A stretch of 64,000 nt of DNA from Acutalibacteraceae bacterium (GTDB taxonomy: Bacteria; Bacillota; Clostridia; Oscillospirales; Acutalibacteraceae): assembly GCA_045538055.1 (NCBI GenBank), contig JAZSQQ010000077.1, positions 20,365 through 84,364 of the forward strand, written 5' to 3'. The number at the start of each line of letters is the position of its first letter. Positions within the stretch are counted from its first letter, which is position 1. Under the pieces are notes generated by a model that saw only the letters and a list, made by a program, of their open reading frames with translations, was not told where the DNA came from and did not search any database. This document shows, piece after piece, positions 16,671-30,182 of this stretch. A program made the position numbers and the translations under genes.

Positions 16671-16692
16671 AAACGGTCAAGATTGACCGTTT
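16671..16692. terminator. Bidirectional hairpin terminator at the end of the histidine kinase gene
   Basis: AAACGGTCA-AGAT-TGACCGTTT flanked by an A-run (left) and a T-run (right). Overlaps the kinase stop codon by 2 nt. Confidence 0.6.
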
Positions 16693-17983
16693 ATTTTTTG
16701 GGTATCAATATCACTATTTTAAACTCTTTATTTTCAAACATCCACTCGAGTTCACCATTGTAGTTTTTTAAAGCGTTGTAAACACTCTTCATTCCGTAAC
16801 CATGAATATTCTTGTTCTCTTTGGTAGAGATCAAAGTATCATTTTCTGCCAAAGGAGCAGTTGAACAACTATTCTTGAGAATGATTTTATGGAACTTGTT
16901 GTCGCACTCTAAAGTTAGTTCAATATAAGGATGCGTTTCTTTTTCAGCTCGCTCAATAGCATTACTTAATAGGTTGTCAAGTATAGCAGATAAATCATAG
17001 TCATTAATAAACGATAGGTTTTCGTTTAATGCGAGAATGGAAAAATTTATATGTTTATCTTTACACAACAGTGAATACTTGTTGATTATTACATCTAACA
17101 ATTTGTTCTTGGTTTTAGCCTTAATTGAGATGTCATTAGCTTTATCGTATATGTTGTTAATATATTGCTTAACATTCTCTTCTGTTGTCAGGTTGCTAAT
17201 GTTGATAAGATTGTTTTTGATGTCGTGCACAAGGATTCTTGTTTCTTCATCTTTCTTTTCTAAAATGTCCAAATATTCGAGATTAATGGTTTGTTTTTGT
17301 TCAAGCATTTCTATATCGTGAAGTTTTTTCTGATCACTTATGGCTCGTTCGTGGACAAAAAATACAACAATTATAGAAATAAACATAAATACTTCGCTCA
17401 ATATAAACAGAAGATTAGTTTCTGTATTTGATTTATAATAGATATTTTGGTAGCGAAAAACAACTGTTATAAAAAATGTCATTGCGGGTAGGGTAGTTAA
17501 TATGATTGATGACATATAACCATCTTTTGTCTTAGTTTTTTTTGAAAAAGATGATATGATTGCCAATAAAACGAAGTATATAAGTTTAGAAGCAAATGCT
17601 TCTTCCACAAAAAGAATTGAGTCGTTTTCGTATTGATTAACCGGTACATTCAAGAACGACGATGTTATAAAGAAAATGAAAAATTCAGCAATGTTCATTA
17701 TTGCTACAAGTAATAACGAATGAAAACTTGATAATTTCCAATCACTCTCAAAAGCAGTAAAGAAAATAATCCAATAAAGTATAAGGGTAGCCGGAATGTT
17801 AATATATGGCTTCGAGAAAAAAATAATCAATAGCCATAATATCACATTAGCAACGAAACAAATCAATAAGGATTGTTTGAAATTGTGTTTATAGTTAAAT
17901 ATTCTACCACCGTACCAAAAAACAATATATGTTCCTAATACATAAACAATAAACATAGTTATTGCAAACATTGTCTGGCTCAT
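16691..17983 (-). CDS. AgrC-like membrane sensor histidine kinase (HPK10/GHKL type)
   Basis: 430-aa ORF. The N-terminal half has about 6 hydrophobic helices. The C-terminal half has a phospho-acceptor region (ILVHDIKNNL) and ATPase-like motifs (LDNLLSNAIE, GYGMKSV). The gene abuts the LytTR regulator gene. Confidence 0.8.
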   Translation of the reverse strand: MSQTMFAITMFIVYVLGTYIVFWYGGRIFNYKHNFKQSLLICFVANVILWLLIIFFSKPYINIPATLILYWIIFFTAFESDWKLSSFHSLLLVAIMNIAEFFIFFITSSFLNVPVNQYENDSILFVEEAFASKLIYFVLLAIISSFSKKTKTKDGYMSSIILTTLPAMTFFITVVFRYQNIYYKSNTETNLLFILSEVFMFISIIVVFFVHERAISDQKKLHDIEMLEQKQTINLEYLDILEKKDEETRILVHDIKNNLINISNLTTEENVKQYINNIYDKANDISIKAKTKNKLLDVIINKYSLLCKDKHINFSILALNENLSFINDYDLSAILDNLLSNAIERAEKETHPYIELTLECDNKFHKIILKNSCSTAPLAENDTLISTKENKNIHGYGMKSVYNALKNYNGELEWMFENKEFKIVILIPKK

Positions 17984-18691
17984 TTACATTCCCCTTTCAG
18001 CAAACAGAAACATTTTTGTGCGGAATTCTTGTTGCCTTTTTGGAGCAACAGAAACTATAAAGCTTTTTTCTTCAAAGGCAAGAGTGAGCGTTTTACGAGT
18101 GAAACTTTTGACAAAGTTGAAATTTATGATGTAGCTTGTATGCGGAGAATAAAATTTCAATTCACTTAATTTTTCTTTCCAAAAATCAATATGTTCTTTA
18201 GATATATACTCACCTTGGGTGGTTACAATTTTTGTTTTTCGTTTATACGATTCGCAGAATATTATAGAGTTAGTTGGAATTATTACAGATTCGTTATTTG
18301 GACAAATTATTTTAACGTCTTTACAGGACATTGTTAATAATGCAGCATCCAATGAACGATATAAGCGAGTTACGTCTAAAGGTTTTTGCAAAAATCGATA
18401 AGCACCAAGATCAAATGCATCGTCAAGATATTCGGAATATGCGGTTATCATAAAGATAACTATGTTGTTGGATCTTTGCTTTAGCTTTTTCCCAACATCA
18501 ATACCATTAATGCTTGGCATCTCAACATCTAAAAAAGCCATATCGAAATATACATTGCTATTTAGTAATTGGTTTCCATCCTCGAAGCATAATATCTCAG
18601 TGGATATAATTTTCTCGGAAAAATAGTTTATTAATGCATCTTTGACCTCAGTTATTCTTTTAGGTTCATCATCGCAGATGGCTATCTTCAT
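17984..18691 (-). CDS. LytTR-family response regulator (AgrA-like)
   Basis: Receiver domain MKIAICDDEP...FLDVEMP...ITAY plus a C-terminal LytTR-type domain. I place the start at the ATG at 18691, which has a GGAGGA RBS, rather than the ORF-track start at 18721. Confidence 0.85.
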   Translation of the reverse strand: MKIAICDDEPKRITEVKDALINYFSEKIISTEILCFEDGNQLLNSNVYFDMAFLDVEMPSINGIDVGKKLKQRSNNIVIFMITAYSEYLDDAFDLGAYRFLQKPLDVTRLYRSLDAALLTMSCKDVKIICPNNESVIIPTNSIIFCESYKRKTKIVTTQGEYISKEHIDFWKEKLSELKFYSPHTSYIINFNFVKSFTRKTLTLAFEEKSFIVSVAPKRQQEFRTKMFLFAERGM

Positions 18692-18768
18692 TATTCTATC
18701 CTCCAATAACAAATGCCGCAAACTGATTACAGTTTACGGCATTAAAAATAAATTGTCAAATATAATTT

Positions 18769-19098
18769 TTATTTTGTGTTATTGTGGTTATCGGCGATTG
18801 CTTTAATCATTACCTTGATGAGTTCAATTTCATCATCAGAGCATTCACGGAGATATTCTGATATTTCTTCTATTTTGGTTTTCTTTACAACCCCAAAAGC
18901 GAAGTAGTCAAGGGTAACATCTAAGCATGTGGCAATATCATATAGTAATTCAACCGAGGTCTTGCTTCTTCCGGTTTCAATAGCAGAGATATGCTTAGAG
19001 GTAACATTTACTTTTTCGGCTAGTTCCTCTTGTGTCATATTAAGTTTTCTTCTTCTGTTACTGATTCTGTATCCAAGCATTTTGAAATTTAACTCCAT
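18769..19098 (-). CDS. XRE-family HTH transcriptional regulator
   Basis: 109-aa ORF. HTH_3 signature LNMTQEELAEKVNVTSKHISAIETGRSKTSVELLYDIA. First gene of the minus-strand xre-RR-HK unit. Confidence 0.8.
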   Translation of the reverse strand: MELNFKMLGYRISNRRRKLNMTQEELAEKVNVTSKHISAIETGRSKTSVELLYDIATCLDVTLDYFAFGVVKKTKIEEISEYLRECSDDEIELIKVMIKAIADNHNNTK

Positions 19099-19148
19099 AA
19101 AACCACCATAGTAATTTTATCATTAAAAAGAGTTAAATAACACCAACA

Positions 19149-19218
19149 GATAATAGAAAAATCTATTATTAGATTGATTTTTATGTTTGATAATAGATAA
19201 AAATACCTGACAATAGGA
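19149..19218. promoter_or_regulatory. Repeated GA(T/C)AATAG(A/G)A boxes in the divergent agr control region
   Basis: GATAATAGA at 19149-19157, with its inverted copy TCTATTAT at 19162-19169. GATAATAGA again at 19189-19197 and GACAATAGGA at 19209-19218. The last two are direct repeats with starts 20 bp apart. Confidence 0.4.
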
Positions 19219-19314
19219 TTTGTTATTTTTTTTTATAGATTTTTGATATTTTAGTTTACGTTATTGAAAAGATATTTATCAGAAAGTATATTGAAGTATA
19301 AAGGGGGTGGATTT

Positions 19315-19476
19315 ATGTCTGTAAAAGAAAATATGCAGAAAAAAACTGCGAATTTTATCAAGAGGATTGTAGAACATTCTTTGAGAGTAGATGCAAATAA
19401 TCTTACAAGTCTTTGGGTTTATCAGCCTAAGGTTCCGGCAATGCTAAAAAATTTTAGCAGAATCAATAAAGGATGA
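19315..19476 (+). CDS. agrD: AgrD-like autoinducing-peptide precursor (53 aa), serine type
   Basis: ATG at 19315 with an AAGGGGG RBS. C-terminal half is NNLTSLWVYQPKVPAMLKNF, which contains the QPxxPxxL recognition tail I recall from clostridial AgrD. The stop overlaps the agrB start (ATGA). Confidence 0.65.
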   Translation: MSVKENMQKKTANFIKRIVEHSLRVDANNLTSLWVYQPKVPAMLKNFSRINKG

Positions 19477-20063
19477 TAGGTCGTGTAGTATCTGGTGTTG
19501 TCGAAAAACTTACCGATAGTGCGACTATTAGTGATAGTGAAAAGGAACTATATCGATATGGGTTCTTTATATTAATCTCACAGATATTATATTTCATTAT
19601 AACAATTATTATGGGAATTTTGTTGGATATATTTTCTTTAAGTGTAGTTTTTTATATCTCTTTTCAGTTTATTAGAAGATATGCCGGTGGAATACATGCT
19701 TCAAGTGAATTGAAATGTGAGATTATAAGTACAATATCAATTATTATCTGCCTTTTGTGTGTTAAATCAAATGTAATGTTCGACATGCCAATCCCGACAT
19801 TGATTTTAACCCTCTTTGCTTCTATTGTCATATTTATTCTTTGTCCGCTTGACACACCAGAAAAACCACTTACAAAAGAAGAACTACGATATTTTCGTAA
19901 GATTTCCCTAATAGTTTTGGCAATAATGTTATCTATTAGCATTATTTCAATTGTTATAAGGTTAACTATTGCGTATCCAATCTGTTTTAGCATAATATTA
20001 GAGAGCGTTTTCTTGGCTGCAGGGAAAATTAAAAGAGAACATAGTAACAAAAATGTTGAATAA
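19473..20063 (+). CDS. agrB: AgrB-family membrane peptidase (AIP processing)
   Basis: 196-aa polytopic ORF with the signature FQFIRRYAGGIHASSELKCEIIS (the AgrB R..aGG.H...C motif). Confidence 0.85.
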   Translation: MIGRVVSGVVEKLTDSATISDSEKELYRYGFFILISQILYFIITIIMGILLDIFSLSVVFYISFQFIRRYAGGIHASSELKCEIISTISIIICLLCVKSNVMFDMPIPTLILTLFASIVIFILCPLDTPEKPLTKEELRYFRKISLIVLAIMLSISIISIVIRLTIAYPICFSIILESVFLAAGKIKREHSNKNVE

Positions 20064-20442
20064 TTGTGTGTTTGGTGCGTTTCTCAGGGAAAAAAGACGG
20101 CAGCAAGGCATGTCGTTAAGAACCCTTGCAAATGAGTTGAATTTATCACATTCCTATTTGTCCTGTATTGAAAACGGTAAGAAACCACCTCCTAGTGATG
20201 CTGTGTTAATTAAAATAGCCTCAATATTATCTATGGATTACAATTCAAAATTATTATTGTTCGATATTGCTTCTGAGATTAAAAGTATTAATAGTAATGA
20301 TTTTTATCTTTCAGCTGATGTTTCAAAATACATTAAAGAAAAGGAATCGCTGAAACTTTTGATTCGGGAAGCAGATAAATGTGGTTGTTCTGATGAGTTT
20401 TGGAATGAAATATTACAAAAACTTAAAAATATGTCCCAGTGA
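20053..20442 (+). CDS. XRE-family HTH protein overlapping agrB (probably co-transcribed)
   Basis: 129-aa ORF. Motif MSLRTLANELNLSHSYLSCIENGKK. Its start overlaps the agrB 3' end by 11 nt. Confidence 0.75.
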   Translation: MLNNCVFGAFLREKRRQQGMSLRTLANELNLSHSYLSCIENGKKPPPSDAVLIKIASILSMDYNSKLLLFDIASEIKSINSNDFYLSADVSKYIKEKESLKLLIREADKCGCSDEFWNEILQKLKNMSQ

Positions 20443-20488
20443 ATGGGATATATTTTTTGGTAATTTTGGTAACCAATGGTGAACATAA

Positions 20489-20686
20489 ATGATCGTAATT
20501 ACACAATTTATTTCAATATCTGATAGCGTAAAAAAGGTACATTGCCCGGTGTGTGGAGCAAGATTATGTGATGTTAAAAAAAATCAAAAAATTAGTGAAA
20601 GAATTTTTAACAATAATTCAGACGGAATTATTATTAAGTGTTATAAATGTCGAAGAAAGTTTAATATTGTAACAACAGATTTATAA
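20489..20686 (+). CDS. Small zinc-ribbon protein
   Basis: 65-aa ORF with CPVCGARLC ... CYKCRRKF (two CxxC pairs). Confidence 0.5.
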   Translation: MIVITQFISISDSVKKVHCPVCGARLCDVKKNQKISERIFNNNSDGIIIKCYKCRRKFNIVTTDL

Positions 20687-20724
20687 AACAGATTGAATTA
20701 TATGTACAGTGCACCATAGTAATA

Positions 20725-20762
20725 GGAGCCTGACGAGTTTTCGTCAGGCTCCTATATTTTTT
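20725..20762 (+). terminator. Rho-independent terminator ending the agrD-agrB-xre-zinc-ribbon unit
   Basis: GGAGCCTGACGA-GTTT-TCGTCAGGCTCC followed by TATATTTTTT. Confidence 0.85.
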
Positions 20763-20878
20763 GACTTGATGGAAACAGAAAGGTCAAAATGCAAAAGAAG
20801 TGGCAAACGTATATTGCTAAATATCCATAGTCTCCGAAGTTTTGATAGCTGAAAATTTCAAAATAAGGAGACTAAAAA

Positions 20879-21448
20879 ATGTCAAAAAAATATTTGGTTT
20901 GGAAAGATCCTAATTGTAATGGCAAAAATATTGAGTGGCTTGATTTAAGTAAAGATGAGTTCCTCGATTTGGTCAATCAACCTGAAAGTGCAAACAGATA
21001 TTTTGTAAAACTATCAGGTGAAACACGTGATGAAATAATTTATATTGAAGCCACGGAAGAAAGATATAAGGCTTGGAAAAAGGAAAAGAATAACGAATAT
21101 TATTTAAGGCAGCAGAAACAAAAAAGAGGATTCCAAGAGTGGCCTTTAGCTGTGTTGCTTAGAGATTTAAACGAAGAATTTGTCGCAGATATCGTTTCTC
21201 TGGAAACTGAAACTTTAGAAGATTTTGCTGAGCGTGATATGTTTTTACAAAATCTTCAACTAGCACTCAAAGAACTACCACAAGATGAATTAGATATTGT
21301 GGTGAAATTGTATTTGTTAAAAGAAAAGAATTGGACTGAACGCGAGATTGCGAAAGCCTTGGGAATTTCTCAGGTTGCAGTTAACAAGAAAAAGAAAAAA
21401 ATCTTAAAAAAATTAAGAAATATGGTTATAAATTTTGAAACAGGTTAG
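20879..21448 (+). CDS. Sigma-70 region-4-like HTH protein (the mobile-element type of small sigma or regulator)
   Basis: 189-aa ORF with an AAGGAG RBS. C-terminal WTEREIAKALGISQVAVNKKKKKILKKLRN resembles a sigma region 4.2 HTH. Confidence 0.55.
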   Translation: MSKKYLVWKDPNCNGKNIEWLDLSKDEFLDLVNQPESANRYFVKLSGETRDEIIYIEATEERYKAWKKEKNNEYYLRQQKQKRGFQEWPLAVLLRDLNEEFVADIVSLETETLEDFAERDMFLQNLQLALKELPQDELDIVVKLYLLKEKNWTEREIAKALGISQVAVNKKKKKILKKLRNMVINFETG

Positions 21449-21825
21449 CAATAGTATAGTGTAAGGGTTTAAAAAGCTGATAATTCATAATTATCGTCAA
21501 TATAAGCCGTCAACAAAGTCACAAGACTGTAGATGTTAGAGCGTGACATAGTGTGAAGTTGAATAGTGTGCTTACATAACTGGTGTGAAAACACGGAAGA
21601 AGTAATTTAATAGCCGTTAAGTTTTTCCTCAGAATATATAAGCACACTATTTTAAAAAACATAAATAAAAACAAGTAAGACTTAACTATACATCTATTTT
21701 GTTCATTTATGCTGATGAGCAATCTGCAAGGATTCATATATTTATGCGTAAGTGGTTATGGTGCTCTTGTGTAAAAGAAATAATTTTTGATAATACTAAA
21801 CGAAAAAGATGGGGGAGAAGTTAAT

Positions 21826-22038
21826 GTGAAAGAAGATAATCAGATTAGAATCGATATCATGGCGAGAGAGATAAGATTGCATTATTATAATAATTATCTT
21901 TATGAAAAAGGTGTAATAAAAAAACGTGAATATGAAAAAATGAATCTTACAATAATTGAAAAATGTGGAAAAAGAAGACATAAAGAGCTTGGAGAAATGT
22001 CTTTTGAAGAAAGATTGCCAAGAATGTGGCATATATAA
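21826..22038 (+). CDS. Hypothetical small protein
   Basis: I prefer the GTG at 21826, which follows a GGGGGAG RBS, over the TTG at 21787. No recognisable motif. Confidence 0.35.
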   Translation: MKEDNQIRIDIMAREIRLHYYNNYLYEKGVIKKREYEKMNLTIIEKCGKRRHKELGEMSFEERLPRMWHI

Positions 22039-22283
22039 TTTGGTGATATATAACTATATGACAGAAAGCAGATGCTATAGACGTTGATATAACCCTTAAG
22101 TGATAATTAAGAATTAATGGGGTAATTCTTATCGAAAACATTAAATGAAAATAGGCATATTATGGAATCGTATGGGTTTAATATTGGTGAAATATACATT
22201 GTGTTTTATAATTTATTTGAGATATGATAAGTAATGCAATGGTTTAGTATTTTAACTGAAATGAACCTTGATGTTTTATTAGC

Positions 22284-22388
22284 TTGCAAAATCTGATATA
22301 TTGTGTTATAATGATACAACAGATACAAGATGTTGGTTTGATTGATTGCAAAAAAACACTTGTAATTGTTCTATTGCTGTGTTATAAT
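22284..22388 (+). promoter_or_regulatory. Two tandem near-consensus sigma-A promoters in front of the RelA/SpoT operon
   Basis: P1: TTGCAA (22284-22289), 17-nt spacer, TATAAT (22307-22312). P2: TTGTAA (22360-22365), 17-nt spacer, TATAAT (22383-22388). Both have TGTGT immediately upstream of the -10 (extended -10). Confidence 0.65.
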
Positions 22389-22433
22389 ATTACCACTTTT
22401 TTATTAGTACTATCTATTGTAGGAGTGAGAAGG

Positions 22434-22622
22434 TTGAAAAGAATTAATGAGGAAGAGTCTGCAAAGGTGTTTATTCAAAAATTGAGCAACGGATATTATC
22501 AGTATGACAGATCACAAAACAATGAAGTGGATTATTGCGAAGTCAAAGAAAAACGTGATACCGATGCGGTGAAGAGTTTTGTTCAGAGTAAATGTTTCGA
22601 AACCTTAAAAAAAATGAAGTAA
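22434..22622 (+). CDS. Small hypothetical protein (62 aa), first gene of the RelA/SpoT operon
   Basis: TTG at 22434 lies 8 nt after an AGGAG RBS (22421-22425). The longer 112-aa ORF-track version would overlap both promoters. Confidence 0.45.
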   Translation: MKRINEEESAKVFIQKLSNGYYQYDRSQNNEVDYCEVKEKRDTDAVKSFVQSKCFETLKKMK

Positions 22623-22637
22623 AAACGAGGGCTAGCC

Positions 22638-23168
22638 GTGTGTGACAAGAATCAAGATTATATTATTCATTTAAAGGATACATATCCTTTTGAACAAAGA
22701 TATATCAATATATTAACGCAAATTCAAGATATTCTTGAAGCTCTTGACATTATGGACTTTGTCAATATAAATACCGACTTGTTAGGACAGGCAATATTGG
22801 ATTATTTTGAAGACATTGATAGGTTGAAGAAATATGAAGATATTAAAAAGGTGAATGTCGACAAGATCTATTCGTATCAAACTTATTGGCTTATCAAAAG
22901 AAAGCCGATACAAATTACAGATAATGATATTGCAAAAGAATATTTACATATCAATGAAAAAGTGTTTACTTGCCTTTTGATCATTAAAATGCTCACAGAG
23001 ACTCACAAAGGTTTTGATGATGTTAACCCTAAGATGTCATCATTTATCGAGCTTATATACTATAATTTTAAGTATAGGACATATACACAAAAAACTCTTG
23101 AGTTAATGGTTTCTAGCTTCATTTGTGGATGCAGTTTTAAAATTTCGGAGGCAAGTGTAGATGCTTAA
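22638..23168 (+). CDS. Hypothetical 176-aa protein, candidate antitoxin or partner of the RelA/SpoT protein
   Basis: GTG start after a GAGGG RBS. Its 3' end overlaps the next gene by 8 nt, which suggests translational coupling. No recognisable motif. Confidence 0.55.
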   Translation: MCDKNQDYIIHLKDTYPFEQRYINILTQIQDILEALDIMDFVNINTDLLGQAILDYFEDIDRLKKYEDIKKVNVDKIYSYQTYWLIKRKPIQITDNDIAKEYLHINEKVFTCLLIIKMLTETHKGFDDVNPKMSSFIELIYYNFKYRTYTQKTLELMVSSFICGCSFKISEASVDA

Positions 23169-24000
23169 TGGTAAGATGACGTTTGAGCAGATAAAAAATA
23201 ATAAAGATGAGTTTTTGTCTGTGTACGGTTTAAAAGATAAATTTAATGAATGCTGTTGTACATGGGAAGAACTGATGGCAATAGGTGAAGACTTTGAAGC
23301 TAAAAGAAATGGTGACTATTTTGAACTATTGAACAAGTATATTGTAGAGATTTCAAAGTTTGATAATGTACACTCTTATCGTTATAGGATTAAAAGTACA
23401 GATAGTTTGCTTGCTAAGATTATAAGTAAAAGCGCAAAAAAGAAAGAGCCAATTACGCTTGACAATTATTTTTGTGAAATAAGTGACCTTCTAGGAATTC
23501 GAATTCTTTATGTTTTTAAAGAGGATTATTGGTCAGTTCATAAACAGATTATGGACTGTTACAAGAAACGTTTTGCTGAAAATATTCATTTGAAACTTCG
23601 TGACGGAGATGACGAAAAAACATATGAAAAACTGTTGAGTAGTCGAGATGTCCAAGTTGAAAAAAACATGGTTTATAGATCTATCCATTACACAATATAT
23701 GCTGATCCGTCTGATATTGAACATAGTCCCAAAATAGAAATTCAGACTAGAACAATTTTTGAAGAGGGTTGGAGTGAAATTAATCATAAACTTGTATATA
23801 AGAAAGGTATGGTCAGTAATCCTAATCTTGAAAAAACCTCTTGTATACTAAGTGAATTAGTGGGCAGTTGTGATGCGGTTGGAACTTTGATGAAATATCT
23901 ATATGACGAAGGAATAATATCACAACCTCTTTCTGAAACAGATGAAAGTGATTCAACAGAACGCGTTGGTGAGGCAATACGTAAACTGCTGCTTAAATAA
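23161..24000 (+). CDS. Stand-alone RelA/SpoT-domain nucleotide pyrophosphokinase (small alarmone synthetase / toxSAS-like)
   Basis: 279-aa ORF with synthetase-fold motifs YRYRIKSTDSLLAKI, DLLGIRILYVF, YRSIHYTIY and IEIQTRTIFEEGWSEINHKLVYK. No hydrolase (HD) domain. Confidence 0.8.
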   Translation: MLNGKMTFEQIKNNKDEFLSVYGLKDKFNECCCTWEELMAIGEDFEAKRNGDYFELLNKYIVEISKFDNVHSYRYRIKSTDSLLAKIISKSAKKKEPITLDNYFCEISDLLGIRILYVFKEDYWSVHKQIMDCYKKRFAENIHLKLRDGDDEKTYEKLLSSRDVQVEKNMVYRSIHYTIYADPSDIEHSPKIEIQTRTIFEEGWSEINHKLVYKKGMVSNPNLEKTSCILSELVGSCDAVGTLMKYLYDEGIISQPLSETDESDSTERVGEAIRKLLLK

Positions 24001-24009
24001 AATAACGAA

Positions 24010-24040
24010 TAAGCCAGCCAATACAGGCTGGCTTATTTAT
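24010..24040 (+). terminator. Rho-independent terminator after the RelA/SpoT gene
   Basis: AAGCCAGCC-AATACA-GGCTGGCTT followed by ATTTAT. Confidence 0.7.
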
Positions 24041-24180
24041 ATTGAGGGGATTGAAGGTTGCACTCGGTACTATTAGTGTAAAAGACGTGGCTGAACAGTA
24101 AATGTTTATAAATTTGCTTAAATACGGTATTCATCCATATATTTAAATGGTGTGTTATTTTACAAAAAGGGGGACTACTA

Positions 24181-27100
24181 ATGAATGAGATAAATTGGAA
24201 CCAATTTATGCTTAAAAATTCAAATCCACAGGAAGCGTTTGAAACGATTTGTAGAAATTTATTTCTGAGAGAATATAAAGTGAGTAGCCATGGTTTTACT
24301 TCCAATTACAATCAAATAGGATTAGAAACTGAACCTGTTCACTTTAAAGGTAAATACTATGGCTTTCAGTGTAAGTACTCTGAAAGTGAGAATGGTGCGG
24401 CTTTATATAAACAGGTATATGATTCACTTGATAAAGCGGTGAAATTGTATCCACAATTAGATGTGGTAATTATTTATACCAATCTTGATGTTAAACCAAA
24501 TGTTTCAAAACAAGAATTAGAGGAGTCTAAAGTAACAAATAGAATAAAAATACATAAGCTCGGAATGGAGAATGATATAGAAATACGCTGGTTTTTAAAA
24601 TCAAATTTCGAAAAAGCTTTGAATGATGTAAAAAATTATGATTTGTACAGAACATTCTTTTCTTCGCAAAATCTCCGAGGATTATTGAATGATGCCATAA
24701 CACATGATGATCGTACATTTTTAGCATCTGAACAATTTATAGATTTATCGCTAAATGGCAAAAAGTTTTCGAATATTAAAGAAGATATTCTTTCACAAAA
24801 TATCAGTATTATTATTGGTTCTGCCGGTACTGGCAAAAGTGAGATTTTAAAAAATTTATATTTTCAGTGTGAAACCCAATATTTATCAAACATTAACACA
24901 GTTTTCTCTGATAGTGATATTTCTATTCCTATTTTCTTGAGAATGAGAGAGTGCTTAAATGGTGATTTAGAGGGATTGCTTAGAAACAGGTTAAAGGATT
25001 TTGATGTTGATTTTTTAAACAAGAGAAATCATTATATTTATTTTTTGGATGGCATTGATGAGATAAGCACAGGTGACTTTGGCGGTGTGATTACATATAT
25101 TACACGTTTAGAGAGTCAAGAAACAACAAAAGCATTTGTGCTCACATCACGTAACAACACTACTAATTTGACAACGGTTTTACGTGATTTAAAACCGAAG
25201 GTTTACACGATTGAACCATTGAATAGTAATGCCGTGGAAGATTATTTCAGCCGGTATAACAATCCTGAAAAACAGAAAAAATTACAAGAAATAAAAGAGA
25301 ATAATCCATCCTTTTTTGAAGATATTACGGATATTTTTTCTGCAGTATTGTTTAATAAAAACATATTTCAAATTGATGAAACTACAACAAAGATTGATTT
25401 GATAAAATTCAATGCTGAAAAATTAGTTGAAAACAATCAAAAATACTCATTAATTAATTTGCCAGAACCCAAATTACTATCCGTAGAGAAAATATTGGGA
25501 CAAGTTTCTGAATTGATGCAACGTTCAGGTAATATTTCGGTGAGTCAAGAAGATTTACAGAGAATAATTGATAAGTTATTCCCTAATTGTAGTTACTTGC
25601 AGGTTGATGAAATTATTGATTTTATTTCCGAAATGTTTTTTGAACATTCGTTTTATGAACTTTCTGGTAGAAGATATTCATATAGACATAAGCGATATTT
25701 TGAGTTCTATTTGTATAGTGCAGTAAAAAATGTGTTTTATGATAATCCTGCAATTTTGAGAGAATTACGATTGTTGTCAAACCAAGATTTTATTATAAAT
25801 ATTTTTTTGCTTCAGGAACTTAAAAATAACATATTAAATAACAACCTTCAACGAACTCTTGTATTGCGTTTCTTTGAAGCATATTTGGGTCAGGCTTATT
25901 TGTGTAACGTGAAATCTCCGTGGCTTGTATCAAAAGAATTATTGCTTTGGGATACTGATTTTTACTTACAATCGCCATACTTGAACGATTTTCTATGCAC
26001 AAAACGAGAGGAGGATTTACGAGATTTTATAAAAAATGATCCACTGTCTATTAGTAAGTTTTTAACAACTAAAAACTATTATTCTTTTGTTAAGCAATAT
26101 CACATAGCAAATGGTATTGATATTAGAAAATTGCTAATTGAAACTTATTTTTTAAGTGAAGAATGGTTGGAACAAGCTGCACAAAAAGACCAAAGTTCAT
26201 TGTGGTATTGTAAATGTGTAATTGATGGTGAATCGATAAATGATGTATACATTAACCTTTGTTGTTTGGAAGCTGTGACAATAAACGACGTAGAACACTA
26301 CAGATACAATTTAAATAAAGCTAATGTTGTTGCAGAGTTTTTTGAAATGGCAATTGAATATTTTAATGAGTGGTTAGTTTCAATTGTAACAGTTATTCCT
26401 GTTCGGCATTTGGAAGCACTAAGTTATGTGTTATTAAGATCTCATAACCTTCGGCACATACAAACACATGAAGGTTTGTCTCCAATATCCGCAGCAATTG
26501 TGGATAGAGTAAATTCATTTGTAGAACATTATGAGATTCACACAATTACATTGTATAAAGTATTAACTGGTGATACCATTCAAGGCGAAGATATTCAACA
26601 ACAAGCTAAAACTGCCAATACCACTCACTGTGAAACATGGCAAGAAAATTTTGAATTAAATAGTTATATTGGGTCACTATATAGAGATTTTGAACCTTAT
26701 TGCTATGATTGCAAATTAGGAATTGCGTTAAGAGAAAAAATGAGTTTTTCTTATTTGAAAAGAAAAACTGATGTATTACCAACAATATTAGAGGAAGTGA
26801 AGAAGTTTAATTTGGTATGCAAAAACCGATTTTCACATTATAATGCGATATTTATAGGAGAAATTATTGCGTATTTTAATGTTGGTAGCTCAGAGGTAAA
26901 GAAGTTTATTGCTGATTTGAGGAGATATAGTAGCGTTGTCTCAACTTTTCAAGTTTTGTACACTATAATGAAAAGTAATCCGAAATTATTTAGTATTATT
27001 GCAAATCCAAGTTTAATTACCTCAGAATACGAAAAAGTTTCTAAAGATCTATCTCATTATGATTATACTTTAGAGCTAGGTTTTATGTACGCAACTATGA

Positions 27101-28275
27101 TTTCTTGTTTTGATATATTGAAGGCAGATTCCTTGTTTGAACGTGCACTGAATAACAGTGTTTTTAGACCTATTTCCCAAAAGGAAAACCTGATTGATTA
27201 TCATTTGTCTAGTTGTTTGTTAACAGCATATAATAACTATTGGTTTTCAAATGAGGAGTTGGAACTTTTAATAAGAAGACAATATGTCATTATGAAAATA
27301 GCTAAAGACACATTATATAACGGTGCCGATTATGGATATTTTAAATATTTAATTGAGCAAAGTTGTCCACACTTGTTAAATATATTTGAAACTTTAGACA
27401 TTGAGTCTATAAAGATAGAAAGAGAAATAGAATGGGAATCGTTTGGCAGTAATTTGCCAAAAGAGAATGTTTCAATAGATAATATTTCAGAATATTATAA
27501 TTGCAACATAAGTGGTATTAATTATTCATCGATTTCTGTTTGGGAAGAACTTATAGGAATAGAATTAATGTATGATAGTGAACTTAACATCTTATATAAA
27601 GTACTAGATGAGAAGATTTTTCCTGGTGCTGAGTCTACAAAGATAAGTAATTGTTTTCATATTATAATAGCAGTCTTGATTTCAAATATTAAAACTAGAC
27701 CGAAAGTTATTGATTTTATCATAAGACATACAGGGCGAATGGGGTTAGTTTACATGATTAAATCTTTTGCCTTGATAGGTGACGATCAATCTGGTCGCCA
27801 CTATATAGAAATGTTGATGAAATTGTGCGAAACTATAGTATATCCGCTTACATGGAACATGAAAAAGATAGAAGGACTTAACAACAACACAGAAAAGATA
27901 GTTGATATTGTTTGTGACAGCAAAACTAATGATTGGGAAGTTGAAAGTCAAGAGTGTATAATGATTTATAAGTTAGACCCTAAAATTTCTGTTAGGTGGG
28001 ATCAGCCTGAAATGCAAGAACCTTATACTGAACAGTGGGCTAAAAAACATTCAAACAAAAAAGCTTCTAGTGTTAGGTATTACATTTACTATCGGGAGGA
28101 AAAAATTAAGACTTTTAACATGGTGTGGGTCGATGATTATAAAGCCTTGATTCCTATGCCCAATATTACAAATAAACATATTGATAGAAAGAGCTATAGT
28201 TTTAGTTGTTTGATTAATCATGATATAGACACTCTGAATAGATATATTATGTCTTCTGGATTGATAGTAGATTAA
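24181..28275 (+). CDS. STAND/NACHT-type P-loop NTPase with an N-terminal PD-(D/E)xK-like nuclease module and a >1000-aa C-terminal helical region (Avs/bNACHT-like antiphage candidate)
   Basis: 1364-aa ORF with a GGGGGA RBS. N-terminus has GLETEP...YGFQCKY (an E-x-E...Q-x-K arrangement). Walker A IIIGSAGTGKSE (aa 211-221). Walker B/NACHT motif YIYFLDGIDEIS. Confidence 0.75.
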   Translation: MNEINWNQFMLKNSNPQEAFETICRNLFLREYKVSSHGFTSNYNQIGLETEPVHFKGKYYGFQCKYSESENGAALYKQVYDSLDKAVKLYPQLDVVIIYTNLDVKPNVSKQELEESKVTNRIKIHKLGMENDIEIRWFLKSNFEKALNDVKNYDLYRTFFSSQNLRGLLNDAITHDDRTFLASEQFIDLSLNGKKFSNIKEDILSQNISIIIGSAGTGKSEILKNLYFQCETQYLSNINTVFSDSDISIPIFLRMRECLNGDLEGLLRNRLKDFDVDFLNKRNHYIYFLDGIDEISTGDFGGVITYITRLESQETTKAFVLTSRNNTTNLTTVLRDLKPKVYTIEPLNSNAVEDYFSRYNNPEKQKKLQEIKENNPSFFEDITDIFSAVLFNKNIFQIDETTTKIDLIKFNAEKLVENNQKYSLINLPEPKLLSVEKILGQVSELMQRSGNISVSQEDLQRIIDKLFPNCSYLQVDEIIDFISEMFFEHSFYELSGRRYSYRHKRYFEFYLYSAVKNVFYDNPAILRELRLLSNQDFIINIFLLQELKNNILNNNLQRTLVLRFFEAYLGQAYLCNVKSPWLVSKELLLWDTDFYLQSPYLNDFLCTKREEDLRDFIKNDPLSISKFLTTKNYYSFVKQYHIANGIDIRKLLIETYFLSEEWLEQAAQKDQSSLWYCKCVIDGESINDVYINLCCLEAVTINDVEHYRYNLNKANVVAEFFEMAIEYFNEWLVSIVTVIPVRHLEALSYVLLRSHNLRHIQTHEGLSPISAAIVDRVNSFVEHYEIHTITLYKVLTGDTIQGEDIQQQAKTANTTHCETWQENFELNSYIGSLYRDFEPYCYDCKLGIALREKMSFSYLKRKTDVLPTILEEVKKFNLVCKNRFSHYNAIFIGEIIAYFNVGSSEVKKFIADLRRYSSVVSTFQVLYTIMKSNPKLFSIIANPSLITSEYEKVSKDLSHYDYTLELGFMYATMISCFDILKADSLFERALNNSVFRPISQKENLIDYHLSSCLLTAYNNYWFSNEELELLIRRQYVIMKIAKDTLYNGADYGYFKYLIEQSCPHLLNIFETLDIESIKIEREIEWESFGSNLPKENVSIDNISEYYNCNISGINYSSISVWEELIGIELMYDSELNILYKVLDEKIFPGAESTKISNCFHIIIAVLISNIKTRPKVIDFIIRHTGRMGLVYMIKSFALIGDDQSGRHYIEMLMKLCETIVYPLTWNMKKIEGLNNNTEKIVDIVCDSKTNDWEVESQECIMIYKLDPKISVRWDQPEMQEPYTEQWAKKHSNKKASSVRYYIYYREEKIKTFNMVWVDDYKALIPMPNITNKHIDRKSYSFSCLINHDIDTLNRYIMSSGLIVD

Positions 28276-28626
28276 CCATATAGCAGTTTGATTTATTTAT
28301 TAATCGTGCATTAATGAAAAGAAGCAATAATCAAACAAATCTACAAAGGGAACCAATAGTTGTAGAGTGTTCGAGTAAAACTGAGTGCTATACACGGTGG
28401 CTGGTAAAGAAGAAGGCTCATGCAAAGTTAAAGGTATGTTTGGATCTATTAGTTGAGATTTCAAAGATAATCAAATTATAAGATTATCACTTAGTAAAAA
28501 ACTATAACTATACAAATAATAGTTTAACTGATGAACTGATTGATAGTAAATTAAATATGCATTTTGAGTTTCAAAAAAACAAGACATTCTGACAAAGAAA
28601 AAATGCTGTTGCATTTGAGATGAAAT

Positions 28627-28660
28627 AAAAGAGCAGTTCAATTTTGAACTGCTCTTTTAT
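28627..28660. terminator. Bidirectional terminator between the NACHT gene and the mobC-like gene
   Basis: AAAAGAGCAGTTCA-ATTT-TGAACTGCTCTTTT, a perfect 14-bp stem with A and T runs on each side. Confidence 0.8.
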
Positions 28661-28769
28661 TGAACTTAAACAACCAATTTGAAATTATATACAAACTGTT
28701 TTTCGTGACCAACAATCCAACGATAGTTACGAGTGAATTGCATATGTCGTACAGGACATATCTTCTTAG

Positions 28770-29096
28770 TCATATGGATTTCTCCTTAAAACCGTATAAG
28801 GTTTTGTTGATTTGGTCGATGACTTCAAGTAAATCTTTGCTGACATTATTACCGTTTTCGATACGCTTCAGTTCATTAAGTACGGCAGCAAGTTCCAGTT
28901 TAAGTGCCTTATATACCTTGGGATTTCCCTCGACAACAATTTCACGATCGGTGCACTTCCTGTAACAGTATTCCTGTTTGGAAAATCCTGAGAGAGCAAC
29001 AATGCGATTAATGGTTTCATATTCTTCGGGAGAGACTCTGAACCCTACGGTTATGGACCTGAATCGATTATGTTTATCTAAATTTTTAGCTGACAT
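28770..29096 (-). CDS. MobC-like ribbon-helix-helix relaxosome accessory protein
   Basis: 108 aa, MSAKNLDKHNRFRSITVGFRVSPEEYETINRIVALSGFSKQEY. A paralog of the product of 59660-59983. Overlaps the int stop. Confidence 0.65.
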   Translation of the reverse strand: MSAKNLDKHNRFRSITVGFRVSPEEYETINRIVALSGFSKQEYCYRKCTDREIVVEGNPKVYKALKLELAAVLNELKRIENGNNVSKDLLEVIDQINKTLYGFKEKSI

Positions 29097-30177
29097 TTTG
29101 CATTGTCTCCTTTCGGAAATTGTTTAGCTGATCTGCCATATCCGTTTGTGTAGACGGAAACAGATGAGCGTAATTATAAGTGATGTTGATGCTTTCGTGT
29201 CCTACACGTTCAGCAATCGCAACTGCCGAATATCCCATTTCTATTAAGAGAGAAATGTGACTATGTCTCAAATCATGGATACGGATACGCTTAATGCCTG
29301 CTTCATCTGCACCTCGTGTCATTTCACGATGCAAATAATTTTTTGATATATTAAAAATTCGATCATTCTTTTTAAGTCCATAAATTTTTGAAATATAAGT
29401 TTTAATTTCTTCAGCAAGAAAATCAGGCATTTTAATAACACGATTACTTTTTGTCGTTTTGGGGTCAGTAATAACATCTCGACCGTCTATGCGTTGATAG
29501 GATTTATTAATTGTAACTGTGCTATGTTCAAAATCGAAATCACCCGCCGTCAACGCTAACAATTCTCCTTCACGAATACCGCACCAATAAAGCATTTCAA
29601 AAGCATAGTATGATATCGGTTTATTCATCACAGCAAATGCGAATTTCTGATATTCCTCTTGTGTCCAAAACAACATCTCACGGTTTTTAGATTTACCCAT
29701 ATTACCAACCTTTGCTGCAGGGTTTTCTTTCAATCCATAGAACTTAACTGCGTGATTGAAAATTGCGCTAAGCTGATTGTGTAATGTTTTAAGGTATACC
29801 GGGGAGTAGGTTTGATGATTTTTGTTGCGAGCTTTAATCATTTCATTTTGCCAAGCGATAATATCCCTTGGCTGAATTTCATTTATTTTACGTTTACCGA
29901 AGTACGGCAGAATCTTCGTTCGAATAATATGCTCTTTAGTTTGCCAAGTATTTTCTTTAAGGCGAGTTTTCATATCCACCGTATAGGTTTCAATAAAGCT
30001 CGCGAAGGTCATACTGAGGTCAGCCTGACTCTTGTTCAAAAACTCACGCTCCCAAGCAAGTGCATCTCGCTTTGTAGGAAATCCTCTCTTGGTGCTTTGC
30101 TTTCGCTCTCCCTTCCAATCGGTTACTCGGTAGTAAACCATCCAGGTGTTTGTTTTTTCATCTTTGTAAACAGCCAT
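29086..30177 (-). CDS. int: Tyrosine site-specific integrase (element A)
   Basis: 363 aa. N-terminal arm-binding-type domain MAVYKDEKTNTWMVYYRVTDWKGERKQSTKRGF. Catalytic region HDLRHSHISLL...GHESINITYNYAHL. Confidence 0.9.
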   Translation of the reverse strand: MAVYKDEKTNTWMVYYRVTDWKGERKQSTKRGFPTKRDALAWEREFLNKSQADLSMTFASFIETYTVDMKTRLKENTWQTKEHIIRTKILPYFGKRKINEIQPRDIIAWQNEMIKARNKNHQTYSPVYLKTLHNQLSAIFNHAVKFYGLKENPAAKVGNMGKSKNREMLFWTQEEYQKFAFAVMNKPISYYAFEMLYWCGIREGELLALTAGDFDFEHSTVTINKSYQRIDGRDVITDPKTTKSNRVIKMPDFLAEEIKTYISKIYGLKKNDRIFNISKNYLHREMTRGADEAGIKRIRIHDLRHSHISLLIEMGYSAVAIAERVGHESINITYNYAHLFPSTQTDMADQLNNFRKETMQNVS

Positions 30178-30182
30178 TTATA

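What the first reader, a model, noticed from the sequence alone, without database searches (positions are those of the whole stretch)
22284..24040. Three-gene operon ending in a stand-alone RelA/SpoT synthetase (toxSAS-like), driven by two tandem consensus promoters
A 279-aa protein has all the RelA/SpoT synthetase motifs I can recognise (DLLGIRILYVF, YRSIHYTIY, EIQTRTIFEEGW...H) and no hydrolase domain. It is translationally coupled (8-nt overlap) to an upstream unknown 176-aa protein, which is in turn preceded by a 62-aa ORF. The unit has its own terminator and two near-identical TTG(C/T)AA-17-TGTGTTATAAT promoters 76 bp apart. Small alarmone-synthetase toxins (FaRel, PhRel and CapRel types) paired with unrelated small antitoxins are an established toxin-antitoxin and antiphage theme. 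Here both partner proteins are unrecognisable to me, the arrangement has three components, and it lies next to a NACHT gene within about 6 kb of the element A integrase module. It could be a new toxSAS-antitoxin family or a new signalling-nucleotide defence module.
Basis: partly seen in the sequence, partly recalled or inferred. Interest (0 to 1): 0.7.

Follow-up and report, generated by a model that had tools for sequence, protein, structure and literature searches.

The report
Alarmone-synthetase operon with novel two-protein partner
This is a real, conserved three-gene unit on a mobile element: an intact RelA/SpoT-type pyrophosphokinase coupled to two proteins of unknown fold that elsewhere pair with other anti-phage killing enzymes, so it is most likely a new variant of alarmone-synthetase toxin/defence system.

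Summary
There are three co-directional genes: orfA (62 aa), orfB (176 aa) and orfC (279 aa). orfB and orfC overlap by 8 nt. Two 10/12 extended -10 promoters lie 76 bp apart, and a 12-bp hairpin terminator follows orfC.

orfC is a RelA_SpoT synthetase (Pfam 4.7e-18) with every catalytic motif invariant and no hydrolase domain. Its closest solved relatives are RelP and RelQ.

The order A-B-C, or C-A-B, recurs in many Clostridia MAGs at 45-65% identity. Neighbours differ from locus to locus and are often mobile-element genes.

orfA and orfB match nothing in Pfam, NCBIfam, PADLOC or PDB, although the orfB model is confident (pLDDT 90).

The main new result is that A-B is a widespread cassette in its own right (768 representative clusters).
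- A and B are sometimes fused into one protein.
- In some loci B is fused to a ThsA/LmuA-like SIR2 domain.
- In others B is followed by a CBASS-effector-like metallophosphoesterase.
- One variant adds a 4-TM protein and a membrane-anchored A.
- About 60% of well-flanked loci have no partner enzyme at all.

Best reading: orfC is the effector of a TA-like or abortive-infection module controlled by the A-B cassette. Toxicity, the direction of control and the substrate are untested. I rate it a new variant of a known kind.

The parts
22284..22312 (+). Promoter P1: TTGCAA, 17-nt spacer, TATAAT, with a TGTG extended -10
   Evidence: scores it 10/12 with a TG extension. The exact 11-mer TGTGTTATAAT is unique to P1 and P2 in the window.
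22360..22388 (+). Promoter P2: TTGTAA, 17-nt spacer, TATAAT, with a TGTG extended -10, 76 bp downstream of P1. P1 and P2 look like a partial local duplication.
   Evidence: The tandem arrangement is not conserved in homologous loci.
22434..22622 (+). orfA, 62 aa, TTG start. A small conserved partner protein with invariant residues G20, R26, N29, Y34, K38, R41-D42-T43, V46 and F55.
   Evidence: tblastn and the HMM find it directly upstream of orfB in homologous loci, at the same length of 61-65 aa and with a ribosome-binding site. Gene callers call it in L081-L088. It is fused to orfB in P0242, P0266, P0335 and P0282. There is no family match.
22638..23168 (+). orfB, 176 aa, GTG start. An acidic all-alpha protein of unknown fold. 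It is the core of the A-B cassette and the presumed controller or sensor of the effector.
   Evidence: 97 close homologues share contigs with orfC homologues. 768 representative clusters match at E<=1e-3. The AF2 model has pLDDT 90 and pTM 0.85, with 8 helices. There is no PDB or BFVD fold match and no family match.
23161..24000 (+). orfC, 279 aa. A RelA/SpoT-family small alarmone synthetase (pyrophosphokinase) and the presumed effector or toxin. It overlaps orfB by 8 nt.
   Evidence: Pfam PF04607 E 4.7e-18, 66 bits against a cut-off of 27. The family profile hits RelP at 3.5e-13 and RelQ at 1e-5. The catalytic residues R76, K78, S82, D109, G112, R114, Y172, R173, S174, H176, E193-T198, H209, Y213 and K214 are invariant in 23 homologues.
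24008..24037 (.). Intrinsic terminator hairpin: 12-bp stem, 6-nt loop, T-rich tails on both sides. It ends the operon.
   Evidence: sequence.

Best explanation
The unit is a self-contained, horizontally mobile conflict module of the toxin-antitoxin / abortive-infection type.

orfC is the effector. It is an active RelA/SpoT pyrophosphokinase that moves pyrophosphate from ATP onto the 3'-OH of a purine nucleotide, making (p)ppGpp- or (p)ppApp-like alarmones and draining NTP pools. Less likely, it acts on the tRNA CCA end. Either way it would stop growth of an infected or deregulated cell.

orfA and orfB form a two-protein control cassette. They act together, being fused into one chain in some lineages. 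orfB holds the enzyme in check until a trigger arrives, most likely a phage-derived one. The same cassette controls other killing enzymes elsewhere: SIR2 in cis, and a metallophosphoesterase, SAS or membrane protein in trans.

Shown here:
- the gene structure;
- the intact active site;
- conservation of the trio;
- A-B fusion;
- B-effector fusion;
- clade-specific pairing of B with defence-type effectors.

Inferred:
- a physical B-C interaction;
- toxicity of orfC;
- the direction of control. I lean about 60:40 towards inhibition-then-release over partner-dependent activation as in PANGU;
- the trigger;
- the substrate.
For: Effector
- orfC carries the RelA_SpoT domain with all synthetase motifs invariant. 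These include the equivalents of FaRel2 D90 and Y128 (D109 and Y172 here), which are essential for toxSAS activity (bioRxiv 10.1101/2021.04.30.441581).

Operon
- orfB and orfC overlap by 8 nt. The unit has its own promoters and terminator.

Conservation of the trio
- A-B-C occurs in 11 GTDB genomes and C-A-B in 1, all Clostridia/Bacillota. It also occurs in many metagenome contigs at 45-65% identity, with differing flanks.

A and B act together
- A-B fusions: P0242, P0266, P0335, P0282.
- A lies directly upstream of B in about three quarters of surveyed loci.

B controls effectors
- P0248 is B fused to SIR2_2 (Pfam 4e-19; PADLOC ThsA 9e-25, LmuA 4e-19). An orfA homologue lies upstream of it.
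- Metallophos proteins lie directly downstream of B in L127 and L147. They match the PADLOC 'Effector' endonuclease model at 2e-20 and 6e-21.
- A variant has a 4-TM protein plus a TM-anchored A.
- Partner type follows B clade in the B tree.
- A-B-linked synthetases cluster apart from the solo long forms. They lack the C-terminal coiled-coil extension of those forms.

Mobile or defence setting
- Window: an Avs4-like gene and a tyrosine integrase are adjacent. GC is 31.5% against 36.3% for the window.
- Homologous loci: serine recombinases, a relaxase, Abi_2, and IMG/VR viral contigs.

Precedents
- toxSAS TA operons of two or three genes (PMC7229694).
- A SAS licensed by a partner protein in PANGU (bioRxiv 10.64898/2026.04.06.716658).
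Against: - There is no experiment. Toxicity, neutralisation, phage defence and protein-protein contact are all inferred.
- Of 30 unique A-B loci with at least 1 kb on both sides, 19 have no recognisable adjacent effector. The cassette therefore has a function of its own that this model does not explain.
- Neither A nor B matches any PADLOC model.
- I made no statistical test of defence-island enrichment for the family.
- Relatives of orfC exist widely as solo genes with no conserved partner, so the enzyme family is not intrinsically dependent on a neutraliser.
- orfA is poorly modelled, with pLDDT below 50 over its conserved motif. Its role is unknown.
- The PANGU precedent shows that a conserved SAS operon need not be a toxin-antitoxin pair.
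Confidence: 0.5

Rival explanations
1. A classical, addiction-type toxSAS toxin-antitoxin operon and nothing more. orfC is a constitutively toxic synthetase. orfB is its dedicated type II antitoxin and sequesters it. orfA is a small autoregulator or third component, an arrangement analogous to omega-epsilon-zeta. The module stabilises the mobile element and does not sense phage.
For: - The antitoxin-first order with translational coupling and a strong own promoter region with repeated elements that could serve as operators.
- Conserved two- or three-gene SAS operons proved to be TA systems in five subfamilies (PMC7229694).
- The location is cargo on integrative or conjugative elements.
Against: - orfB homologues are mostly found without any synthetase. 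They also occur fused to, or followed by, unrelated effector enzymes. That is not what a dedicated antitoxin looks like.
- orfA has no recognisable DNA-binding domain.
- orfB has no similarity to known toxSAS antitoxins: no DUF4065/Panacea or HD hit, and no fold match in PDB.
Confidence: 0.2
2. The core system is A-B itself, for example a small antitoxin A with a toxin or effector B. The synthetase is an accessory gene recruited in one clade. It might act as a signal generator whose nucleotide product acts on B, or as a second independent toxin.
For: - Stand-alone A-B units flanked by convergent or divergent genes are the majority.
- B carries many invariant polar residues (K76, W84, N106, D59, E107, R147, E155), compatible with an active or ligand-binding site.
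- The sizes and order (62 aa upstream, 176 aa downstream, 15-nt spacer) are typical of a TA pair.
- Tandem B-B proteins exist.
Against: - B has no similarity to any known toxin, enzyme or nucleotide-binding fold.
- A-B fusions are unusual for an antitoxin-toxin pair, though CapRel is a precedent.
- Partner enzymes are all classical terminal effectors and not signal generators.
- B is soluble and acidic, with no TM segment.
Confidence: 0.15
3. A physiological small alarmone synthetase in the manner of RelP/RelQ. It adjusts (p)ppGpp levels in the host or element, and A and B are ordinary regulatory subunits. It would not be a conflict system.
For: - The closest solved relatives are the non-toxic housekeeping enzymes RelP and RelQ.
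- The protein is acidic like RelQ, whose negative surface is thought to exclude tRNA.
- Solo relatives are tolerated without partners.
Against: - Distribution is patchy and lies on mobile elements, plasmids and prophage-like contigs. The setting is low in GC.
- The same A-B cassette is coupled to SIR2 (ThsA/LmuA-like) and CBASS-effector-like phosphoesterase.
- The NCBIfam RelQ equivalog scores only 29.7 bits against a cut-off of 320.
Confidence: 0.07
4. An exported interbacterial alarmone-synthetase toxin with an immunity protein (B) and a secretion adaptor (A).
For: - Exported alarmone synthetases and Tas1-type toxins exist (PMC12691689).
- SIR2, TIR and phosphoesterase domains are also polymorphic-toxin domains.
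Against: - orfC has no signal peptide and no LXG, PAAR or other trafficking domain. Its N-terminal 70 residues are conserved across the cytoplasmic solo family.
- No secretion-system genes are conserved nearby.
Confidence: 0.03

Closest known systems
toxSAS toxin-antitoxin modules (FaRel, FaRel2, PhRel, PhRel2, CapRel; Jimmy et al. 2020, PMC7229694; Kurata et al. 2021)
   Same: - A stand-alone RelA/SpoT synthetase with an intact active site in a tightly packed, conserved two- or three-gene operon on mobile DNA.
- The partner proteins have no known domains.
- FaRel is also a three-gene operon.
   Different: - The family profile of orfC matches RelP and RelQ. No other synthetase chain in the PDB sequence set appears at E<=10. 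I could not place it in the published subfamily tree.
- The partners are not homologous to any known toxSAS antitoxin: not SAH, not Panacea/DUF4065, not the PAD1/D27/pseudo-ZBD fold.
- The partner is a two-protein cassette with a life of its own and with other effector partners.
PANGU type I (YejK-like nucleoid protein Pag1A plus GRel synthetase Pag1B; bioRxiv 10.64898/2026.04.06.716658)
   Same: - A SAS effector paired with a non-enzymatic partner that also pairs with many other effector types, giving a modular and polyphyletic family.
- It shows that the partner may license the synthetase instead of neutralising it.
   Different: - There is no YejK/NA37 protein here, nor next to 40 neighbouring genes (>=120 aa, same strand, within 200 nt) flanking the solo relatives of orfC.
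- The partner here is a 62-aa plus 176-aa pair of unknown fold.
- This is a three-gene unit, not a bicistronic one.
CapRel (fused toxSAS-antitoxin anti-phage protein; PMC9712102)
   Same: The idea of a synthetase held inactive by a sensor or antitoxin module that responds to a phage protein. The long solo relatives of orfC carry a C-terminal extension that could play that part.
   Different: - orfC has no C-terminal extension.
- Its control module, if B is one, is encoded separately and is unrelated in sequence and fold.
- PADLOC gives only a marginal hit to PDC-S33 (E 0.011).
RelP / RelQ small alarmone synthetases (PDB 6FGK, 6EWZ, 5DEC)
   Same: They are the closest solved structures by sequence. 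Catalytic motifs are the same and the size class is similar.
   Different: - The NCBIfam RelQ (YjbM) equivalog score is 29.7 against a cut-off of 320.
- orfC has a conserved extra N-terminal region of about 70 residues and a conserved C-terminal helix, both shared with its own family.
- It has an operonic partner cassette and a mobile-element context.
Single-chain or two-gene defence systems with swappable effectors (Thoeris ThsA, Lamassu LmuA, CBASS effectors)
   Same: The effector domains found attached to orfB homologues match ThsA/LmuA SIR2 and a CBASS-type phosphoesterase effector. Effector choice is modular.
   Different: There is no TIR/cyclase signal generator and no SLOG/SAVED sensor. 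The shared module is the novel A-B cassette.

Membership tests
RelA/SpoT homologue superfamily, small alarmone synthetase (SAS) class | RelA_SpoT (PF04607) synthetase domain above the curated threshold | tested here: met
   66 bits against a cut-off of 27, E 4.7e-18, residues 76-216.
RelA/SpoT homologue superfamily, small alarmone synthetase (SAS) class | Intact catalytic motifs: RxKxxxS, DxxGxR, YxSxH, ExQxRT, HxxxYK | tested here: met
   R76, K78, S82, D109, G112, R114, Y172, S174, H176, E193, Q195, R197, T198, H209, Y213 and K214 are invariant in 23 homologues. They align to RelP/RelQ.
RelA/SpoT homologue superfamily, small alarmone synthetase (SAS) class | No HD hydrolase domain and no TGS/ACT regulatory domains | tested here: met
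   PF04607 is the only Pfam hit at E<=0.1 in a 279-aa protein.
toxSAS toxin-antitoxin systems | A conserved, tightly linked two- or three-gene operon with the SAS | tested here: met
   A-B-C or C-A-B is found in 12 GTDB genomes and in many metagenome contigs with differing flanks.
toxSAS toxin-antitoxin systems | SAS is toxic on expression, and toxicity depends on the active site | not testable with these tools
   This needs expression of orfC and of D109/Y172 mutants.
toxSAS toxin-antitoxin systems | The neighbouring gene product neutralises the SAS | not testable with these tools
   This needs co-expression of orfB, with and without orfA.
toxSAS toxin-antitoxin systems | Membership of a validated toxic subfamily (FaRel, FaRel2, PhRel, PhRel2, CapRel) | tested here: inconclusive
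   The family profile against all PDB chain sequences returns only RelP, RelQ and unnamed GTP pyrophosphokinase chains (3L9D, 2BE3) at E<=10. The reference subfamily HMMs and datasets were not available. The taxon spread of the wider family resembles fpRel of Atkinson 2011, which is an inference only.
toxSAS toxin-antitoxin systems | The antitoxin belongs to a known anti-toxSAS class: SAH/HD, Panacea DUF4065, or the PAD1/D27/pseudo-ZBD fold | tested here: not met
   There is no Pfam, NCBIfam or PADLOC hit for A or B. Foldseek of a pLDDT-90 model of B against PDB gives no match at E<1.
PANGU type I | A YejK-like (NA37) nucleoid-associated protein encoded with the SAS | tested here: not met
   A and B have no Pfam hit. 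None of 40 neighbouring genes flanking the solo relatives of orfC hits NA37.
PANGU type I | SAS of the GRel subfamily, inert alone and activated by the partner | not tested
   The subfamily reference was unavailable. The activity test is experimental.
CapRel fused toxin-antitoxin | A single polypeptide with an N-terminal SAS and a C-terminal pseudo-ZBD antitoxin/sensor domain | tested here: not met
   orfC ends about 60 residues after the catalytic core and has no extra domain. There is only a marginal PADLOC hit, to PDC-S33 at E 0.011.
Known anti-phage defence systems (PADLOC 2.0) | Any component matches a defence-system model | tested here: not met
   A and B have no hit. C has only PDC-S33 at E 0.011. 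Effector partners of B homologues do match: ThsA/LmuA SIR2 and a CBASS-type effector.

The most novel reading that the evidence does not exclude
orfA+orfB is a previously undescribed, structurally novel two-protein sensor/regulator cassette. It defines a new family of modular anti-phage systems in gut anaerobes. The same cassette commands interchangeable killing enzymes: a RelA/SpoT pyrophosphokinase, a ThsA/LmuA-like SIR2, a CBASS-type metallophosphoesterase, and a membrane protein. It also exists alone. The window carries the synthetase-armed version, whose enzyme belongs to an uncharacterised SAS lineage.
Probability: 0.4. Interest if true: 0.8.

Novelty: new variant of a known kind. Interest (0 to 1): 0.66.

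Why it matters
Alarmone-synthetase toxins are a young and active field covering tRNA pyrophosphorylation, (p)ppApp poisoning, CapRel and PANGU. Each newly characterised subfamily has so far revealed a new control principle.

This locus offers three things:
1. A synthetase lineage that has not been tested.
2. A compact, clonable three-gene unit with clear promoters.
3. A partner cassette of unknown fold that natural gene fusions tie to SIR2 and phosphoesterase effectors.

The third point makes the question [quoted passage not shown] directly testable. It also points to hundreds of unannotated relatives in gut metagenomes.

Tried and rejected
Searches on orfA and orfB that found nothing
- Pfam, NCBIfam, PADLOC and PHROGs gave nothing usable.
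- PDB sequence searches with orfB alone and with the broad B profile gave nothing.
- Foldseek of the orfB model against PDB and BFVD, and of the A-B fusion model against PDB, gave no match at E<1.
- hhalign of the B profile against an Abi_2 protein from a neighbouring locus and against the window's sigma-like protein showed no relation.
- orfB was absent from the phage and plasmid collections by tblastn.

- The word-index search for orfA found only 3 proteins. orfA homologues were recovered by tblastn and HMM on fetched loci instead.
I modelled the natural A-B fusion P0242 instead. Its A part is low-confidence.
- The exact-match look-up of P0121 for the source contig was not on record.
No defence-island enrichment statistic is therefore given.
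- The first broad B alignment was too divergent for the locus scan. A narrower one worked.

Hypotheses tested and rejected
- The wider SAS family is PANGU type I: no YejK/NA37 and no recurrent partner among 40 neighbouring genes.
- The sigma-like gene upstream belongs to the unit: it shares only generic region-4 similarity with the one in L081 and is not recurrent.
- The Avs4-like/NACHT neighbour is a component: the downstream gene differs in every homologous locus.

Not possible
- Subfamily placement in the Atkinson/Hauryliuk RSH scheme, because the supplementary datasets are not held.
Full report
OBSERVATION

- Three co-directional ORFs are present: orfA at 22434-22622 (62 aa, TTG start behind an AGGAG-type ribosome-binding site), orfB at 22638-23168 (176 aa, GTG start) and orfC at 23161-24000 (279 aa, ATG start).
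- orfB and orfC overlap by 8 nt. orfA and orfB are 15 nt apart.
- The 62-aa and 176-aa products are identical to proteins called on an NCBI contig of 106,247 bp. The start choices therefore agree with an independent annotation.
- The two best sigma-70-like sites in a 3-kb scan are TTGCAA-17-TATAAT at 22284-22312 and TTGTAA-17-TATAAT at 22360-22388. Both have a TG extension.
- The shared 11-mer TGTGTTATAAT occurs nowhere else in the 64 kb. The expected count is 0.07, and 0 of 100 shuffles reached 2.
- A 12-bp-stem hairpin at 24008-24037 closes the unit.
- The promoter region looks like a partial local duplication.
- Homologous loci usually have a single strong promoter 60-120 nt upstream of orfA. 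The tandem arrangement is therefore a local feature and not part of the system's design.

THE SYNTHETASE

orfC carries the Pfam RelA_SpoT domain (66 bits against a cut-off of 27, E 4.7e-18) and nothing else.
- In an alignment of 23 homologues at 45-65% identity, all catalytic positions are invariant: R76, K78, S82; D109, G112, R114; Y172, R173, S174, H176; E193-I-Q-T-R-T198; H209, Y213, K214.
- D109 and Y172 correspond to FaRel2 D90 and Y128, whose mutation abolishes toxSAS activity.
- By sequence, the nearest solved structures are the housekeeping enzymes RelP (profile E 3.5e-13) and RelQ (1e-5). No other synthetase in the PDB sequence set appears at E<=10.
- orfC is far from being a RelQ orthologue. 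NCBIfam gives 29.7 bits against a cut-off of 320.

orfC belongs to a wide family.
- 186 confirmed loci were found in one-genome-per-species GTDB contigs, spanning Bacillota, Pseudomonadota, Bacteroidota, CPR and others.
- Most of these relatives (31-41% identity) are longer, at 330-530 aa. They carry a variable coiled-coil-like C-terminal extension.
- They have no conserved neighbour. Forty flanking genes gave 74 different Pfam families, none in more than two loci, and no YejK/NA37.
- Examples include a 349-aa protein on Bacillus anthracis pXO1 and proteins on Geobacillus, Paracoccus, Ralstonia and Fusobacterium plasmids.
- There is also a phage family, phrog_2211 (E 1e-27).
- That taxon spread resembles the 'fpRel' group of Atkinson et al. 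2011. I could not test this placement.
- In a neighbour-joining tree, the synthetases linked to orfA-orfB cluster together and apart from the solo long forms. They lack the extension.

THE TRIO IS CONSERVED

- orfB has 97 close homologues.
- In the GTDB loci, orfB is present in 12 of the 80 kept, all Clostridia/Bacillota MAGs: Eubacterium, Christensenella, Lachnospiraceae, Anaerofustis and others. In each it lies next to the synthetase.
- orfA is found by tblastn directly upstream in ten of these loci. It has the same length (61-65 aa), its own ribosome-binding site and invariant residues G20, R26, N29, Y34, K38, R41-D42-T43, V46 and F55.
- Gene callers independently call the 61-62 / 168-178 / 275-291 aa trio in metagenome contigs.
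- Flanking genes differ from locus to locus. They include serine recombinases with a relaxase, Abi_2, a ParB/Tad region and tRNA synthetases. The trio is therefore the unit.
- A second order, C-A-B, exists with a divergent orfA.
- In the window, the unit lies in a 31.5% GC stretch against 36.3% overall. Upstream is an ICE-type sigma-like gene, and downstream are an Avs4-like gene and a tyrosine integrase.

THE A-B CASSETTE: THE MAIN NEW FINDING

Neither protein matches Pfam, NCBIfam, PADLOC or PHROGs.
- orfB gives a confident all-alpha model of eight helices (pLDDT 90, pTM 0.85).
- That model has no Foldseek match at E<1 in PDB or BFVD.
- The family profile finds nothing in PDB sequences.

A profile search of 1.84 billion representative proteins returns 768 clusters at E<=1e-3 and 394 at E<=1e-10. 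This is far more than the synthetase-linked clade. Among these hits:
- Four clusters are orfA-orfB fusions: P0242, P0266, P0335, P0282.
- Two are tandem B-B proteins.
- P0248 is orfB fused to a SIR2_2 domain (Pfam 4e-19). The SIR2 part matches Thoeris ThsA (9e-25) and Lamassu LmuA (4e-19) models.
- In its contigs, P0248 is preceded by a 71-aa gene that matches the orfA HMM at 1e-9.

A viral-contig scan confirmed 4. In the 94 loci examined there were 82 distinct orfB genes.
- An orfA-HMM hit lies directly upstream in about three quarters of them.
- 16 have an orfC-type synthetase.
- Two have a calcineurin-like phosphoesterase immediately downstream (12-nt gap in one, overlapping in the other). 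These match the PADLOC 'Effector' endonuclease model at 2e-20 and 6e-21.
- Five have a 4-TM protein plus a membrane-anchored orfA variant upstream.
- One C-A-B locus is followed by a TIR-TPR protein.

Counting only the 30 distinct loci with at least 1 kb on both sides gives 8 with the synthetase, 2 with the phosphoesterase, 1 with the 4-TM protein and 19 with no recognisable partner. Many of the 19 are bracketed by genes on the opposite strand.

In a tree of orfB, partner type follows clade. This argues for stable functional coupling and against chance adjacency.

MECHANISM

What is shown:
- an intact pyrophosphokinase;
- translational coupling to orfB;
- a conserved trio;
- A-B fusion, which is Rosetta-stone evidence that A and B work together;
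- B fused or adjacent to effector enzymes of the kind used by known defence systems;
- mobile-element settings.

What I infer is that orfC is the growth-arresting effector and that A-B is a control or sensor cassette gating it.

I lean about 60:40 to 'held inactive, released by a trigger'. This is the logic of CapRel and of N-terminal sensor domains fused to SIR2. Three observations favour it:
- B lies upstream of C and is translationally coupled to it.
- B is the N-terminal domain of the SIR2 fusion.
- The A-B-linked synthetases have lost the C-terminal extension of their solo relatives.

PANGU shows the opposite polarity is possible: a synthetase inert alone and licensed by its partner, with the operon not a TA pair.

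The substrate cannot be read from sequence. Kurata et al. state there is no signature that separates tRNA-modifying from nucleotide-forming SAS. The acidic character of orfC (pI about 5.6) weakly favours nucleotides over tRNA.

The role of orfA is open. Its conserved motif is modelled with low confidence, even inside the natural fusion.

RIVALS

- A plain addiction-type toxSAS TA with B as a dedicated antitoxin fits the operon. It does not fit B's independent distribution or its other partners.
- A-B could itself be the core system, with A as antitoxin and B as toxin or receptor. This is suggested by the stand-alone majority and by B's many invariant polar residues. It lacks any fold or family support.
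- A housekeeping alarmone synthetase is unlikely given the mobile, patchy, low-GC setting and the partner swapping.
- An exported toxin is unlikely because there is no export signal.

COMPARISON AND NOVELTY

The locus works like a toxSAS TA or defence module, and the enzyme is a bona fide SAS.
- It fails the tests for known anti-toxSAS partners, for PANGU (no YejK) and for CapRel (no fused C-terminal domain).
- I found no paper describing this trio or the A-B cassette in the searches made.
- I therefore rate it a new variant of a known kind.
- There is a substantial chance (about 0.4) that the A-B cassette defines a new modular defence family.

LIMITS

- Everything functional is inference.
- The stand-alone A-B loci are unexplained.
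- No enrichment statistic for defence neighbourhoods was obtained.
- The trees are neighbour-joining on BLOSUM distances, without support values.
- The metagenome loci come largely from a handful of samples.

Noticed in passing
window 24181-28275 (+): A 1364-aa protein. Its first 233 residues match the Avs4 N-terminal region (PADLOC 9e-34, NCBIfam 4e-36). The rest matches NACHT/nSTAND3 only weakly, below the Pfam thresholds. It looks like a divergent Avs4-like STAND defence protein. It is not conserved next to the trio in other loci.
   Followed up: partly
window 16691-20063: An agr-like quorum-sensing cluster: a GHKL histidine kinase (430 aa, -), a LytTR response regulator (245 aa, -), an XRE regulator (109 aa, -) and AgrB (196 aa, +; Pfam 4e-37). 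I did not look for an AgrD-type peptide gene.
   Followed up: no
window 20053-22038: ICE- or transposon-like regulatory genes lie upstream of the operon: an XRE protein (129 aa), a 65-aa ORF with two CxxC pairs (20489-20686), a sigma-70 region-4 protein (189 aa, 20879-21448) and an 83-aa ORF. A sigma-like gene also precedes the trio in L081, but only generic region-4 similarity is shared.
   Followed up: partly
window 29086-30177 (-), and 20000-30200 overall: A tyrosine integrase with Arm-DNA-binding, SAM-like and catalytic domains. The 10-kb stretch holding the operon and the Avs4-like gene is 31.5% GC against 36.3% for the window, consistent with an acquired island.
   Followed up: partly
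window 10062-16487 (-): A 2141-aa protein with a subtilase S8 domain and many BspA-type leucine-rich repeats (LRR_5, 6.9e-132).
   Followed up: no
window 22184-22212 (+): A third, weaker promoter-like element (TTGGTG-17-TATAAT, 9/12). It has a one-mismatch copy of the same extended -10 (TGTTTTATAAT) about 100 bp upstream of P1.
   Followed up: no
L175 3022-4071 (B. anthracis pXO1, WP_001176696.1): The anthrax plasmid pXO1 carries a solo 349-aa relative of orfC (31.8% identity over 91% of orfC), next to a XerS recombinase. 95 Bacillus plasmid records match. I found no paper on it.
   Followed up: partly
L148, L151, L161, L163, L172 (upstream of the orfB homologue): A sub-family in which orfA carries an N-terminal transmembrane helix (119-144 aa) and is preceded by a 157-200-aa protein with about four TM segments. 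This may be a membrane-effector version of the cassette.
   Followed up: partly
P0222, P0234: Proteins made of two tandem orfB domains (370 and 363 aa). They suggest that orfB works as a dimer or higher oligomer.
   Followed up: no
L009 and L006, immediately upstream of orfA: A homologous small ORF ends just before orfA in two loci (its C-terminal part reads ...RGDQMTAVFKRVLGLRRLEVFNQMYQQF in L009 and ...RGKGEKSPTFERLVGVKRIKTFDSLFTQ in L006). It could be a fourth gene in that sub-clade.
   Followed up: no
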